Below are positions 1,688-6,150 of a DNA stretch of 64,000 nt, in pieces. Every line of letters starts with the position of its first letter. Positions within the stretch are counted from its first letter, which is position 1. Made by a program: the position numbers and the translations under genes. The notes under the pieces were generated by a model. That model worked only from the letters and a program-made list of their open reading frames with translations. It was not told the DNA's origin and did not search any database. The stretch is from NCBI GenBank assembly GCA_965205425.1, contig CBDBGZ010000008.1:128001-192000 (forward strand), written 5' to 3'. This DNA comes from Nitrosopumilus sp. GTDB taxonomy: Archaea > Thermoproteota > Nitrososphaeria > Nitrososphaerales > Nitrosopumilaceae.

Positions 1688-3494
1688 GATAAATTTTGAT
1701 ATCATTTTGTGAGGACGTAAAATCCATCAGATTCCTTGCAACATCAGAACGTTTTGGTATTTTGATTTGTCCTTTTTTTCCGATTCTAACAGATGCAATA
1801 AACTTCTCATTACCATAGATATCAGCATGCATTGAAGAGAAATCCCTATTGACCGTAAGTAGTAAAGCAGTTTTTGATTCTGAAAAACTAAATGGTAAAT
1901 CACTAGAAGTAAGTGAAACTTCATCAGATGTTTTTTCAACTACATCAATGTGTACTTGGAGGGATTTTTCAATTTCATTAATGTTTGATCCGCCTCGCCC
2001 AATTATAGATGCAATATTTTGTTCATTTACCATTACTTTTACTCTGTTATCAGATAAAATTTCAACTTCAGCGTGAGGATCATAACGACGAAAAGTTTCT
2101 TTGATTTTTTCTTCAGCTAGTTTTTCAATTCCTATTTTATCTACTTTTTTACCAACAGGTACAATGACATTTTCTTCTCCAAATGTGTAAATTTCATGCT
2201 CTAAAACATTATCTTCAAAATTTCTGATTTCAATGACAGGTCTAGCCAAATCAGATTCGGTCATTCCAGTAGGTACTTTTACTTTTAATTCTAAATCATA
2301 GACTTTTTGAATTCCACCATCTTTAACAAAAACAACAGTATCCAAAACATTGGGAATAATTCCCAGTTCTATTTTTCCAATAAAACGTTGAATTGCATCT
2401 AGGGGAGAATTTGCATGTACAACACCAACCATTCCAACACCAGTTAATCGTAAATCAGCAAAAGTTGCAAAATCTTCTCTTCGTCTTACTTCATCAAAAA
2501 TTGTATAATCAGGTCTTACAAGTAATAAAATATCTGCAGTATTGTCAAAACTGCCATCTAGTTTACTATATTGAGTTACTCCAGAATCTACTTGTAAATC
2601 ACGTGGAGATTCAAATGTTTTAACAATTTTCCCTTTATTGTGATAAAAATTTGCAAGACCAGATGCAAGAGTACTTTTTCCAGAGCCAGGAGCACCAGAA
2701 ATTACAATGCCTTCAGCACTGTCAGAAAAACGCTCCATTAATTTTTCAGAGATGGTGTAATCATCAAGAGATAATTTAACGATTGGGTGAACTATAGTAA
2801 TTTCAAAAGATTCAGAGAAAGGAGGATATGTAATTGCTATTCTGTAATCGCCATGCTGAACAACAGATGCTCCAGTTTTAGATATCTCTAACGTACTAGA
2901 ATCAAAAATATTTACTACATCTAAAATTTGAGATGAAATCATTTCCAAATAATCTTTTGAAAGAGTTTCGTCATTAATCTGGGTTAATTGGAATGAACCG
3001 GGTTTACCTTTTTTTGCTAAAGGGTATTGATTCTCTTTAAGATGAATGCTCATAGTTTCAGAGTCAAAAAATTTAAGGAATTCTAAGGATTCATTTTTAA
3101 TTTTAGATTTAAGAAAAACAGTTTCAACGTCTTCAGCTTGAGCAACTAAATGTTGTACATGATCAGAAGTATATAGAATAGCACCATATTGTTTTGCCAT
3201 ATCAACTATCAATGCATCAATTCTCCCACTACTGGCAAGCTTTACATCATCAGAAGTTGGATGATTTCCACTTACAAGGATGTTCAACCCATGACTGCCA
3301 GATAAGGATTTGAGTTTTCTAATTCTCTCAAGACCAATGAACCCTTGTTCTTTTTTCTTGGAAGCTTGTGATTGAAGTTCATCAAAAACCGCTTGAGGGA
3401 TAATGATTTCAAAATTTCGAATACTGCCAGATTCTATCTGAGAAACTAACTGACCATTTATGATGACACTAGTATCTGCAACAATTTTTGACAT
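1674..3494 (-). CDS. PIN-domain ATPase with KH domain (PINA-like)
   Basis: N-terminal IVADTS PIN motif, Walker A GAPGSGKS, FDEVR, KH motif IIGRGG. Confidence 0.92.
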   Translation of the reverse strand: MSKIVADTSVIINGQLVSQIESGSIRNFEIIIPQAVFDELQSQASKKKEQGFIGLERIRKLKSLSGSHGLNILVSGNHPTSDDVKLASSGRIDALIVDMAKQYGAILYTSDHVQHLVAQAEDVETVFLKSKIKNESLEFLKFFDSETMSIHLKENQYPLAKKGKPGSFQLTQINDETLSKDYLEMISSQILDVVNIFDSSTLEISKTGASVVQHGDYRIAITYPPFSESFEITIVHPIVKLSLDDYTISEKLMERFSDSAEGIVISGAPGSGKSTLASGLANFYHNKGKIVKTFESPRDLQVDSGVTQYSKLDGSFDNTADILLLVRPDYTIFDEVRRREDFATFADLRLTGVGMVGVVHANSPLDAIQRFIGKIELGIIPNVLDTVVFVKDGGIQKVYDLELKVKVPTGMTESDLARPVIEIRNFEDNVLEHEIYTFGEENVIVPVGKKVDKIGIEKLAEEKIKETFRRYDPHAEVEILSDNRVKVMVNEQNIASIIGRGGSNINEIEKSLQVHIDVVEKTSDEVSLTSSDLPFSFSESKTALLLTVNRDFSSMHADIYGNEKFIASVRIGKKGQIKIPKRSDVARNLMDFTSSQNDIKIYLKDF

Positions 3495-3571
3495 TTTTAG
3501 ATCAATTGTTCAATTATTTTATACCCTAAATTACTTTCTTAAATTAGAGTCTTAATTGATTCTAAAACACC

Positions 3572-3668
3572 GTTAAAATCAAATGGTTTTGATATGTATG
3601 AGGAAGCCAAACTCTTTTGAATTATTGCAGGGTCAAATATTATAGTTAAAATCAAATGGTTTTGATAT
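3572..3668. repeat. 36-bp direct repeat GTTAAAATCAAATGGTTTTGATATGTATGAGGAAGC flanking a 37-bp unique insert; second copy split by ISH3
   Basis: Copy 1 3572-3607, insert 3608-3644, copy 2 = 3645-3668 + 4994-5005 after removing the IS and one TSD. Confidence 0.9.
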
Positions 3669-4988
3669 CAGTAGATGGGAAAGTAACTCAAATTACACAT
3701 TCTAGGAAATAATTATTTTTGTTATTTCTAAAGTAATGAATAATTATCTTTACAAAGAAATATTTGAGAATTTCAATTGATATTATTGGTTTGTGATTTT
3801 GTACATTAGTTTCTTCTGAGATAATCAAATTAGCAATTATCCATGCATTGTACAAAATCAATGAATAGTAAAAATACAACAATCTTATGGATTGGTTTGA
3901 ACTGGTGGTTTTTGGTCTGAACCTTCCCACACATGCATAGCCTGTTTCAATCCCCCAACGTTTCTTGTAATCAGTTGGAATGTTTTGTATGTTATATGAT
4001 ATTTCTTTTGGTGAAACGTTTGTTGCAAACACAACATACTGATCAATAATATCTGATTTTTTTCTTGCATTTTTGTTTGGCAGAATAACTAGATTAAATG
4101 ATTCTACATGTCCTGATGATGATTTTATTGTGTATGGCGAGATTGACTTTCTATCTCCATTAACGTATTGTACAATTGCATCTTTGATTCGAGAATTCTT
4201 TTTTGCAGGCATTAGAAATTTTAAATTCCTTTGTTTTATTTCTGAAATTGTTCCAGCTGTGAAAAACTCCCTATCCACTAGCAATAGTTTAATCTTGATT
4301 CCATTATTGATGCCATCAGAGAGTAATTTACGCACAAAATCGGCATTTGATTTGTTGTCATACAAAGGATAACAACCTAATTGAGCCCTGATTCTTTTTT
4401 CAACGCACTGCATGGTGCAGTAACTCTCAAAATGAGTAGTACTGTTTTTTGATTTTGATTTTATTAAAGAATGGTTTGGCAATTTGTCATATCTTGGGAT
4501 TAGATGTTTGTCAATTGCTACAGTAACTGGTTGCTCCAATACTCCCAATTCTTGTAATTTTGATATGGTACTATCCAGTGAACGATGTAATTGAATTTGC
4601 ATTGTTTTTTGTGATATTTTTGATATGATTTTTCTCAACCATGAAACCAGTTGGAGAAGCATTATCTGATTCCATTGCCAGTCTCTTTAATCCAGATTCA
4701 GAATATGAATTTCCCAAACACAATGACATGATAGAATTATGTGCATCTGCATTGTGGAACCGTGAGTTATTTTTACTAGAGCATGGAAACAATAAGATAT
4801 TGTACATTATTTTAGTGATAATCTCAAATGCTTTAGATAGTATCACGCCTTGGTGTGTCATGGTATCAAATGAAGTACAATGCATATTTGATGGAGTGAC
4901 ATACTTTCATCAAGCTTTTTCTATCTGAATAGATTGATTGAATAATTGATAGTTTTTGATCTAAATTGAGTTACTTTCCCATCTACTG
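3669..4988 (-). mobile_element. ISH3-family IS copy 1 (frameshifted transposase)
   Basis: TIR CAGTAGATGGGAAAGTAACTCAA at both ends; 5-bp TSD GATAT (3664-3668/4989-4993). Confidence 0.92.
3688..4885 (-). pseudogene. ISH3 DDE transposase with +1 frameshift near 4645
   Basis: ORFs 4571-4885 and 3688-4662 together match intact 60368-61564; VAIDKH, LLVDREF, YKKRWGIETGY motifs. Confidence 0.88.
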
Positions 4989-5241
4989 GATATGTATGAG
5001 GAAGCACCATGATCTAAACATTGTTGAATTACTTTTTGATCATCACTTGCAGTAATTAGAATTATTTTTGCTTTAGGATCATACTTCATTACTTCTTGCA
5101 CAACTGTAAACCCATCTTTTTTTGACATTGCTAAATCAAGTAATAGGATTTGAGGATTATGTTTTTGATAGAAATCAACTGCTTCAGCACCATCAATTGC
5201 TTCGGCTACTACCTCATGTTCTCCAATTGATAAAATATCTT

Positions 5242-6150
5242 GGTGATTGTAAACCTATTACCACCAACTATTTTTGAGTAATTATTGGAAAAAACAATCA
5301 ACATAATTGAGTTATCTAAAATAATTCACAACAAATCAACTGCATTGGAATTTCTCTGCAACCAATTCAAAAAGAAAAACACAATTCATTGTTCATCATG
5401 TAACTCTGAGAATTACTATATTATTTCAAGAGGGAAACTAAGATGCAAAGATTGCAAGACAGATTATAGACCGTTTGCTGGAACATGGTTTGATATCATC
5501 AACATTAATTTTACAAAATGGTTGGCCCTAGTCAAACTATTTGATATTGGGATTAGTGCAAGACGTGCAGCTAGAGAAGCAGATGTCAGTTATCCAACTT
5601 GCACTAAATGCTTTTGATTGCATCAGATATGCCATACTGTATCATCTGGCAGAATCAGACAAGAAACTAAAAGGGAAAATTGAGGCTGACGAGGCGACTA
5701 TTTTGGAGGAAAAAGAAAGGGAAATCGTGGCAGAGGTGCCAAGAACAAGACCATCGTATTTGGCATACTGGAAAGAAAGGGAAAAGTTCACGTTGAGATT
5801 GTAAACAATGTCAAGGCAAAGACATTGCTTGCAGGAACAATCAAGAAAGTAAAGAAAGGAAGCATTGTGTATACGGACAAGAGGAGAGGATATGATTCGC
5901 TAGTTTTCAACGGCTACAAACATCTCTCAATAGGCCACAGCAAGATGTTTGGCAAAGGTGATGTGTACATCAATGGGATTGAAGGGTTTTGGAGTTTTGC
6001 AAAAGAGAACATGGCAAAGCATCACGGAGTAAGTCCAGATAAATTCTTGTTATACATCAAAGAGATGGAGTGGAGATACAATAACAGGAATTCTGATCTA
6101 TTTGAATTGTTGTTGAAATACATGTTAGGGGTAGAATATACCTAATCACC
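5242..6150 (+). mobile_element. IS1595-family IS (degenerate)
   Basis: Imperfect TIRs starting GGTGATT; N-terminal CxxC..CxxC Zn finger, EADE, VYTD, NGIEGFWS, EMEWRYN motifs. Confidence 0.85.
5285..6145 (+). pseudogene. IS1595 transposase split over three frames
   Basis: ORFs 5285-5617, 5541-5804 and 5825-6145 carry successive motifs. Confidence 0.85.

What the first reader, a model, noticed from the sequence alone, without database searches (positions are those of the whole stretch)
3572..5005. Repeat-spacer-repeat unit with CRISPR geometry (36 + 37 + 36 bp) inside a response-regulator gene
Seen: a 36-bp piece of the CheY-like coding sequence (antisense of ASSYISKPFDFN) is exactly duplicated around a 37-bp unrelated insert; the second copy was later split by ISH3. 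The unit starts GTT, contains a hairpin (ATCAAA-TGGT-TTTGAT) and ends GAAGC, resembling archaeal CRISPR repeats. Established: Cas1-Cas2 duplicates the repeat around each new spacer and can integrate off-target at repeat-like sites; casposases also make long target duplications. Inference: a natural off-target spacer acquisition that truncated a gene (new end FNYNI*). No cas genes are in this window.
Basis: partly seen in the sequence, partly recalled or inferred. Interest (0 to 1): 0.75.

Follow-up and report, generated by a model that had tools for sequence, protein, structure and literature searches.

The report
Stray CRISPR-style spacer insertion scar
A broken signalling gene of an ammonia-oxidising archaeon carries a scar of the kind CRISPR spacer insertion leaves, a short foreign insert between two copies of 36 target bases, although the genome as assembled has no CRISPR genes.

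Summary
Window 3572-3607 (36 nt) recurs exactly at 3645-3668 plus 4994-5005, around a unique 37-nt insert. The second copy was later split by a 1320-bp insertion sequence with a 5-bp duplication.

- **Not an assembly artefact:** independent contigs of two public runs bridge the unit, and relatives carry one copy with no insert.
- **Not a one-off:** the genome holds six such units, with duplications of 36-38 nt, inserts of 32-37 nt and periods of 69-73. One insert exactly copies a chromosomal gene elsewhere.
- **Geometry matches CRISPR:** a same-genus genome has an array with 36-nt repeats and periods of 70-72. Elsewhere, solitary units track the resident repeat length in two genomes. They are 4-8 times denser in two samples with 36/37-nt CRISPR.

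Best reading (about 0.75): off-target spacer integration by a Cas1-Cas2 complex.

Points against:
- No Cas1 and no array is in this 99.55%-complete assembly.
- The six target sites do not resemble a known repeat.
- The 37-mer's source was not found.

This is a known kind of event (Nivala 2018, seen only as cited). This scan has noted it before on other DNA. New here is a cas-less genome keeping the scars.

The parts
3572..3607 (.). R1: first copy of the 36-nt duplicated target. It is the antisense of ASSYISKPFDFN and is joined to the native 3' end of the gene.
3608..3644 (.). S: 37-nt insert, 27% G+C, unique in the genome, not a hairpin, source unknown.
3645..3668 (.). R2a: first 24 nt of the second copy. 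It ends in GATAT, the left copy of the IS target duplication.
3669..4988 (-). 1320-bp insertion sequence with 27-nt inverted ends (3669-3695 and 4962-4988). It has about 28 other copies in the genome and inserted after the duplication.
3688..4662 (-). Transposase ORF of that IS, 324 aa, Pfam DDE_Tnp_1.
4989..5005 (.). R2b: the right GATAT copy (4989-4993) plus the last 12 nt of the second copy (4994-5005).
5006..5241 (-). Remaining 5' part of the CheY-like response-regulator gene (DILSIGEHE...DHG). About 18 N-terminal codons are missing compared with the 118-aa ortholog in G153.
3539..3571 (-). Native 3' end of the response-regulator gene (GVLESIKTLI plus stop), read by eye. It is cut off from the rest of the gene by S.
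5285..6145 (+). IS1595-like element (zinc-ribbon ORF 5285-5617 and ORF 5825-6145) that replaces the 5' end of the gene from about 5242.

Best explanation
The unit is the scar of one ectopic (off-target) CRISPR spacer integration.

Proposed steps:
1. A Cas1-Cas2 type integrase, belonging to a CRISPR system with a 36-nt repeat, joined the two 3' ends of a ~37-bp prespacer to the two strands of ordinary chromosomal DNA, 36 bp apart.
2. Gap repair then duplicated those 36 bp on either side of the insert.
3. The site happened to lie in a CheY-like response-regulator gene. This moved the stop codon forward, giving ...FNYNI*.
4. Later a DDE-type IS landed in the second copy.

The same process hit at least five other places in this genome, three of them in copies of one rve-type IS. 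The enzyme is no longer, or not, in the assembly.

Shown: insertion with a fixed 36-bp duplication, recurrence, empty sites, and capture of own-genome DNA in one of the six units.

Inferred: that Cas1-Cas2 did it, and that the cas locus was later lost or left unassembled.
For: (1) Recurrence.
- There are six solitary units. Their maximal repeats are 37, 37, 37, 36, 38 (one mismatch) and 36 nt, their inserts 32, 34, 33, 34, 34 and 37 nt, and their periods 69, 71, 70, 70, 72 and 73.
- They are 6 of the 18 isolated direct-repeat pairs with periods of 40-130.
- A true duplication of 36 nt plus 0-2 chance-matching bases fits all six.

(2) Empty sites.
- 16, 16 and 19 other copies of the rve-type IS carry a single copy of the duplicated 36-37-mer, at up to 2 mismatches.
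- For the finding itself, 6 of 9 relatives' loci show one R contiguous with both flanks, and 0 of 9 hold S.
- Contigs of X1 and X18 (90-95% alike) join 3590 to 4989, which means one R, no S and no IS.

(3) Origin of one insert. The insert at C8:25071 is an exact 34-nt copy of C9:1141146-1141179, inside a VWA-domain gene.

(4) Geometry of CRISPR in relatives. Same-genus G013 has a cas operon and 67 repeats of 36 nt, with periods of 71 (33 times), 72 (20 times), 70 (10 times) and 73-75 (3 times).

(5) Units track the resident system in other genomes.
- G442 has a 30-nt repeat array with periods of 64-67, and a unit with R = 30 and period 65. That R is 18/30 identical to the repeat, in register (P about 0.007).
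- G443 has 36-nt repeats with periods of 72-75, and a unit with R = 36/37 and period 72.

(6) Density. Under uniform criteria, units with periods of 64-78 number:
- 17.5 and 20 per Mb in 400-kb samples of G188 and G259, which have resident 36- and 37-nt CRISPR;
- 2.3 to 5 per Mb in G000, G442, G444 and G152, which have no 36/37-nt system.

(7) Lineage. Cas1 was found in 52 of 120 other genomes of the genus.

(8) Target ends. 11 of the 12 ends of the six duplications are G or C, in a genome of 33% G+C. I counted this by eye, after the fact.
Against: - No Cas1 (PF01867) is in this assembly, which is 99.55% complete.
- tblastn with the ORFs of 120 aa or more around the cas loci of G167, G164, G188, G185, G442 and G443, and with 13 ORFs of the G013 locus (8 of them cas), hit only non-cas neighbours apart from one weak helicase-like match.
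- No array of three or more units exists.
- No copy of nine known repeats of the genus was found, apart from one 8-mismatch match inside a 460-aa ORF that I take as chance.
- The six targets do not resemble the G013 repeat, and G443's target does not resemble its own repeat (13/36).
- G442, whose only Cas1 goes with 30-nt repeats, also has a unit with R of 37-39 and period 72, in tRNA-Phe.
- Cas1-less G152 has a unit with period 72, R = 36 and 2 mismatches.
- In G259 the periods of six units are 73-74, while the array mode is 71-72, and the apparent R ranges from 35 to 43.
- Five of the six inserts, the finding's among them, have no known source.
- No PAM could be tested.
Confidence: 0.75

Rival explanations
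1. An undescribed, Cas1-independent process makes these units. It could be another integrase, or a process that always adds about 72 nt, made up of an insert plus a compensating duplication. The likeness to CRISPR geometry would then be coincidence or distant kinship.
For: - G000 has six near-perfect units and no Cas1.
- G442 has a 37-nt-class unit without a 37-nt-class system.
- Cas1-less G152 has one such unit.
- In G259 the period is tighter (73-74) than the apparent duplication (35-43).
Against: - In G000 the duplication is the tight quantity (36-38) and the period varies (69-73), which is the opposite of a constant sum.
- None of the six inserts is a hairpin (z from -0.19 to +1.23).
- The 30-nt unit in G442 matches a 30-nt array, and its target resembles the repeat.
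- Unit density is 4-8 times higher where a 36/37-nt CRISPR is resident.
- I know of no other enzyme that leaves this footprint (recalled knowledge, not a test).
Confidence: 0.14
2. A casposase (Cas1 homologue of a casposon) inserted the fragment.
For: Casposon-type Cas1 genes are likely among the Cas1 hits in the genus (ORFs of about 360-450 aa; not verified). The family 1 casposase integrates oligonucleotides from 7 nt upward (PMC8464041, abstract).
Against: Target duplications are 13 bp for family 1 and about 14 bp for family 2 (PMC8464041, passages), not 36. There is no Cas1 of any kind in G000, and no terminal inverted repeats in S.
Confidence: 0.02
3. R is the attachment site of an integrase-borne element, and S is what an internal deletion left of that element.
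For: The G442 unit lies in a tRNA gene, a classic attachment site.
Against: Six different R sequences in G000 all have the same length. S sequences are unrelated to each other and one is a copy of a host gene. S is unique in 401 genomes of the family at up to 3 mismatches. In G442 it is the 5' part of the tRNA that is duplicated.
Confidence: 0.03
4. It is a replication-slippage or tandem-duplication product, or an assembly artefact.
For: 36-37 nt is near common k-mer sizes. The runs that confirm the unit may be the source data.
Against: S is unlike either flank. R2 is interrupted by an IS with its own target duplication, so R2 existed as real DNA before that insertion. Two runs' separately built contigs bridge the unit. 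Units of the same kind occur in at least five other assemblies.
Confidence: 0.03

Closest known systems
Non-canonical (off-target) spacer integration giving 'neo-CRISPR' loci in E. coli overproducing Cas1-Cas2 (Nivala, Shipman and Church 2018). I saw it only as cited in 10.1101/148544, PMC6698737 and PMC7054753 (passages). The paper itself is not held.
   Same: A spacer-sized insert lies between two copies of a repeat-length stretch of ordinary genomic DNA, outside any array.
   Different: - It is natural, not induced.
- It is in an archaeon.
- The duplication is 36 nt.
- There are six events with unrelated targets that do not resemble a known repeat.
- No cas genes are left in the genome.
- None has grown into an array.
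In-vitro off-target integration by Pyrococcus furiosus Cas1-Cas2 (PMC6698737, passages)
   Same: An archaeal integrase places spacers at non-CRISPR sites.
   Different: There, the off-target sites shared sequence features with the repeat. Here only the G442 unit does (18/30). The six G000 sites and the G443 site do not.
Casposon integration (family 1 casposase of Ca. Nitrosopumilus koreensis AR1, PMC8464041)
   Same: A Cas1-family integrase in the same group of archaea, with a ruler-set target duplication, able to insert short oligonucleotides.
   Different: The duplication is 13 bp and the target site is specific. No casposase is in G000.
Virus-borne mini-CRISPR arrays (Faure 2019 and Medvedeva 2019, as summarised in PMC8616872, passage)
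   Same: One spacer lies between two repeats, away from cas genes.
   Different: Their repeats match the host's CRISPR repeat. Here each 'repeat' is a copy of the local target.

Membership tests
Off-target Cas1-Cas2 spacer integration | The target duplication has the length of a CRISPR repeat of a cognate system | tested here: met
   The duplication is 36 nt (36-38 apparent across the six units). Repeats are 36 nt in same-genus G013 and in family member G044. No cognate system is in G000 itself.
Off-target Cas1-Cas2 spacer integration | Insert length lies within the spacer range of that system | tested here: met
   Taking the period minus 36 gives 33-37 nt for the six units. G013 spacers are 34-39 nt, mostly 34-36. 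One unit, at 33 nt, lies just below that range.
Off-target Cas1-Cas2 spacer integration | Relatives or paralogous copies show the empty site with one copy of the target | tested here: met
Off-target Cas1-Cas2 spacer integration | The insert is a copy of DNA present elsewhere (a protospacer) | tested here: inconclusive
   Met for 1 of the 6 units (an exact 34-nt copy). Not met for the finding's 37-mer, nor for the other four inserts within this genome. Only cores of two of those four were also searched in viral or metagenome contigs.
Off-target Cas1-Cas2 spacer integration | Cas1-Cas2 is encoded in the same genome | tested here: not met
   No PF01867 match. No tblastn match to cas ORFs of the genus. 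Cas2, Cas4 and other cas families were not searched by profile. The assembly is 99.55% complete, in 9 contigs.
Off-target Cas1-Cas2 spacer integration | The target resembles the repeat or the leader-repeat junction | tested here: not met
   Sum of best identities is 91, against 93.7 +/- 4.5 for random sites, scored against the G013 repeat. The true cognate repeat is unknown.
Off-target Cas1-Cas2 spacer integration | A PAM lies next to the protospacer | not testable with these tools
   Only one protospacer is known (flanks ...GACCA / TAAAC...). The PAM of the presumed system is unknown. 566 spacers of relatives gave only 2 weak matches to G000.
CRISPR array | Three or more copies of one repeat with a leader, next to or matching a cas-linked array | tested here: not met
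   Only two copies per unit, each unit with its own sequence. No array is in the genome.
Casposon | Casposase gene, terminal inverted repeats, target duplication of 13-14 bp | tested here: not met
   No Cas1. The duplication is 36 bp. The TSD sizes come from PMC8464041.
ISH3-family insertion sequence (the element in R2) | DDE transposase, terminal inverted repeats, short target duplication | tested here: inconclusive
   Pfam DDE_Tnp_1, 27-nt inverted ends and a 5-bp duplication. No IS-family library was on hand, so the name 'ISH3' is untested.

The most novel reading that the evidence does not exclude
In this cas-less archaeon the 36-bp-duplication insertions are made by something other than a resident CRISPR adaptation module. 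It could be an integrase supplied in trans by a virus or plasmid, or an undescribed enzyme that captures ~34-bp fragments of cellular DNA and writes them into the chromosome. The latter would be a stand-alone 'spacer writer' without a CRISPR array.
Probability: 0.12. Interest if true: 0.9.

Novelty: new member of a known kind. Interest (0 to 1): 0.6.

Why it matters
- **CRISPR adaptation as a mutagen.** Off-target spacer integration is documented mainly in E. coli forced to overproduce Cas1-Cas2. Natural cases are described as circumstantial (10.1101/148544, passage). Here the scars break genes in wild ammonia-oxidising archaea: a response regulator, transposases, and a tRNA in a relative.
- **It recurs across a genus.**
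- **The scars outlast the enzyme.** In this genome they persist although the genome as assembled lacks the cas genes. The duplication length would then record the repeat length of a lost system, a usable fossil of past CRISPR-Cas.
- **Data on the integrase's intrinsic preferences.** The set of natural off-target sites is free data on this: G/C at 11 of 12 target ends, and three of six hits in one IS family.
- **If Cas1 is truly absent from the lineage.** If it was absent when the units formed, an unknown enzyme is at work.

Tried and rejected
**Source of the 37-mer**
- No match in the own genome at up to 10 mismatches.
- None in 400 other genomes of the family at up to 3 mismatches.
- No exact match of a 22-nt core in viral contigs or of a 24-nt core in metagenome contigs.

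**Sources of other inserts**
- Cores of two other inserts gave nothing: for the 61% G+C insert, and for the C4 insert.

**Relic of a CRISPR-Cas locus in G000**
- Flanks of the G013 locus map to scattered places.
- Next to the block syntenic with G443's cas neighbourhood lie ordinary genes.
- Where G185 has its array and cas1, G000's synteny ends at an IS copy. That system is of the 30-nt class, so it does not explain 36-nt units.

**Repeat remnants**
- One 8-mismatch match to the G164 repeat (C9:834002) lies inside a 460-aa ORF. I take it as chance.

**PAM**
- 566 spacers from ten arrays of relatives gave 2 weak matches to G000 (25-29 nt with 2-3 mismatches). One search printed self-matches and was cut.

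**Older, degenerate units in G000**
- None was found beyond the six.

**Hairpins**
- A hairpin in the inserts is rejected. A hairpin in the targets is weak and inconsistent.

**Counting caveats**
- The uniform count dropped one of the six G000 units (C7:83610), probably through its neighbour filter. It also kept a G444 pair with period 78 that one search shows to be a protein-coding tandem repeat.
- Two G188 pairs (307648 and 481088) belong to a repeated gene family. I do not count them as units.

**Not done**
- I listed coordinates for tiling the whole G013 genome but did not fetch it.
- Only 400-440 kb samples of five other genomes were scanned, so all densities are sample figures.

Full report
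**What is there.** The window is G000:C8:128001-192000. G000 is a 2.2-Mb genome in 9 contigs with 33% G+C. It encodes archaeal AmoA, so it is an ammonia-oxidising archaeon. Named relatives that share one of its insertion sequences are Nitrosopumilus MAGs.

- At 3572-3607 lies a 36-mer, R1, followed by a 37-nt insert, S (3608-3644).
- The first 24 nt of the same 36-mer follow at 3645-3668.
- A 1320-bp element occupies 3669-4988. It has 27-nt inverted ends and a 324-aa DDE_Tnp_1 transposase.
- After the element come GATAT and the last 12 nt of the 36-mer, at 4989-5005.
- GATAT flanks the element on both sides. With the element and one GATAT removed, the second copy equals the first at 36 of 36 positions.

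So the 36-bp duplication came first and the IS landed in the second copy afterwards.

**The gene.** On the minus strand, R encodes ASSYISKPFDFN of a CheY-like receiver.
- The intact ortholog in G153 is 118 aa and ends ...KPFDFNSVLESIKSLI.
- In G000 the reading from the second copy runs into S and stops, giving ...FNYNI*.
- The native tail GVLESIKTLI follows the first copy.
- About 18 N-terminal codons are also missing. An IS1595-like element takes their place from about 5242.

The gene therefore carries three lesions, and the order of the first and third cannot be told.

**Is it real, and is it an insertion?**
- Apart from the split second copy (R2), R and S occur nowhere else in the genome, at up to 9 and up to 10 mismatches.
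- Separately built contigs of two runs bridge R1-S-R2a-IS without a difference (X15 record 6 and X16 record 18). These runs may be the source sample.
- In a search of 31 genomes of the genus, nine alignments stop exactly at query position 408, the last base of R1.
- Of nine relatives' loci examined, six show one R contiguous with both flanks, three matched only the downstream flank, and none holds S.
- Contigs of two further runs, 90-95% alike to the window, join 3590 directly to 4989 with 17 ambiguous letters. That means one R, no S and no IS.

**It is one of six.** A scan of the genome for direct repeats with a spacer found five more units of the same build:

| Locus | Repeat (nt) | Insert (nt) |
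|---|---|---|
| C4:117180 | 37 | 32 |
| C7:83610 | 37 | 34 |
| C9:109909 | 37 | 33 |
| C8:25035 | 36 | 34 |
| C8:42829 | 38, one mismatch | 34 |

- With the finding, these are 6 of the 18 isolated direct-repeat pairs with periods of 40-130.
- The repeats are unrelated to each other, and so are the inserts.
- The duplication is the constant quantity (36-38, which fits 36 plus 0-2 chance matches), while the period varies from 69 to 73.
- No older, degenerate units were seen.
- Three units sit at different places in copies of one rve-type IS of about 1.03 kb with roughly 18 copies. The other copies carry the site once.
- One insert, 34 nt at C8:25071, is an exact copy of C9:1141146-1141179, inside a VWA-domain gene. 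So at least this insert was copied from the cell's own DNA.
- None of the six inserts folds into a hairpin.

**Link to CRISPR.**

G000 itself has no trace of a CRISPR system:
- no Cas1;
- no array;
- no tblastn match to cas ORFs of seven loci of relatives.

Cas1 is nevertheless common in the lineage:
- 49 of 151 genomes of the family (this tally includes the unpublished G092 and G077);
- 52 of 120 other genomes of the genus.

Same-genus G013 has a cas operon and an array of 67 repeats of 36 nt, with periods of 71 (33 times), 72 (20), 70 (10) and 73-75 (3). That is the geometry of the six units.

Other systems in the group:

| Repeat length | Periods |
|---|---|
| 30 nt | 64-69 |
| 37 nt | 70-77 |
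| A second 36-nt type | 71-76 |

**Do units follow the resident system elsewhere?**

Thirty loci around relatives of the rve-type transposase held two units:
- G442 has a 30-nt array with periods of 64-67. Its unit has R = 30 and period 65, and its target is 18/30 identical to the resident repeat in register (P about 0.007).
- G443 has 36-nt repeats with periods of 72-75. Its unit has R = 36/37 and period 72. Its target does not resemble the repeat (13/36).

Under uniform criteria, units with periods of 64-78 were counted in samples of 400-440 kb:

| Genome | Resident system | Units per Mb |
|---|---|---|
| G188 | 36-nt CRISPR | 17.5 |
| G259 | 37-nt CRISPR | 20 |
| G442 | 30-nt CRISPR | 4.5 |
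| G444 | 30-nt-class Cas1 (by size; its array was not examined) | 5 |
| G152 | no Cas1 | 5 |
| G000 (whole genome) | no Cas1 | 2.3 |

These are small counts from kin, and the filter is imperfect (see Tried and rejected).

**What does not fit.**
- The enzyme is missing from G000.
- The six targets are no more like the G013 repeat than random sites are (91 against 93.7 +/- 4.5).
- The hairpin in R is real but is not a consistent trait of the other targets.
- G442 has a second unit, with R of 37-39 and period 72, inside tRNA-Phe. Yet its only Cas1 goes with 30-nt repeats.
- Cas1-less G152 has a unit with period 72, R = 36 and two mismatches.
- In G259 six units have periods of 73-74 while the array mode is 71-72, and their apparent duplications range from 35 to 43.
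- The first two of these last three points can be read as scars of systems since lost. CRISPR loci are patchy in this genus.
- They equally feed the rival of a Cas1-independent process, which an earlier unchecked note of this scan proposed for another genome.
- In G000 that 'constant sum' model fits worse than a fixed 36-bp duplication.

**Mechanism proposed.**
1. A Cas1-Cas2 complex of a 36-nt-repeat system captured ~33-37-bp fragments, at least sometimes from the cell's own DNA.
2. It attacked non-CRISPR DNA at two points 36 bp apart on opposite strands.
3. Repair of the two single-stranded gaps duplicated the 36 bp.

Further points, all inferred rather than shown:
- Survivors are seen where disruption is tolerated. 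G000 is 24.9% repeated DNA.
- Three of six hits fall in an IS family that makes up under 1% of the genome.
- 11 of the 12 duplication ends are G or C, counted by eye.
- The cas locus was then lost, or it lies in unassembled DNA.

**Comparison with what is known.**
- The closest known event is off-target integration giving 'neo-CRISPR' loci in E. coli overproducing Cas1-Cas2 (Nivala 2018). I saw it only as cited, with natural cases called circumstantial. The paper itself is not held.
- P. furiosus Cas1-Cas2 integrates off-target in vitro, at sites that share repeat features.
- Casposases of this group make 13-14-bp duplications.
- Virus-borne mini-arrays carry true CRISPR repeats.
- My searches for natural off-target scars in these archaea listed no paper on them. 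That shows only that none turned up in this library.
- This scan's own earlier notes report similar scars in other genomes, Nitrosopumilus among them. These are unchecked AI notes and do not count as independent evidence.

**Verdict.** This is a new member of a known kind, with the twist that the genome as assembled has no cas genes. Confidence in the Cas1-Cas2 reading is about 0.75, and interest is 0.6.

Noticed in passing
L157 (G188:C1:148373 unit) compared with window 3669-3689 and 4968-4989: The 35-nt insert of a solitary unit in G188 contains 21-24 nt identical to the terminal inverted repeat of the DDE-type IS that sits in this finding's R2, plus adjoining DNA. That insert was therefore captured across an IS end.
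   Followed up: partly
G000, whole genome: 24.9% of the genome has at least one other copy (200 bp or more at 85% or higher), and 13.8% has five or more other copies. That includes about 28 other copies of the DDE-type IS, about 18 copies of the rve-type IS, and a ~290-bp element in about 35 copies. This is an IS-swamped genome.
   Followed up: partly
G000 C7:83610, C9:109909 and C8:25035: Three of the six units lie in copies of one IS family that makes up under 1% of the genome. This may be selection (neutral ground) or a target preference, for example for transposition intermediates. It was not tested.
   Followed up: no
window 5242-6145: The 5' end of the response-regulator gene is replaced by an IS1595-like element (zinc-ribbon ORF 5285-5617). 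Contigs of relatives diverge from the window at about 5241.
   Followed up: partly
L088 1136-1276 (G442:C1:541136-541276): A unit with period 72 duplicates the 5' two-thirds of tRNA-Phe. ARAGORN still calls a tRNA that borrows 3 nt from the insert. The original acceptor stem seems to be split from the rest of the tRNA.
   Followed up: partly
L135-L154 (G259 sample): Six solitary units have periods of 73-74 while the resident array's mode is 71-72, and their apparent duplications range from 35 to 43. Either off-target spacers are a little longer, or the sum is constrained.
   Followed up: no
L033 and L040 (CBDBIW010000011.1): A contig filed under a Cyclobacteriaceae bacterium MAG encodes the rve-type transposase at 98% identity to G000's. 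This is likely a mis-binned archaeal contig or a recent transfer.
   Followed up: no
window 3285-3583, run X16: Run X16 holds a second, related sequence variant of this region beside the exact one. Records 16 and 17 have 5 and 13 differences, and a loose end starts at 3583. So there is more than one strain in that sample.
   Followed up: no
G152 and G259 samples: Genomes that the tool places in the same genus have 53% and 47% G+C, against 33% in G000. The 'genus' is therefore compositionally broad.
   Followed up: no
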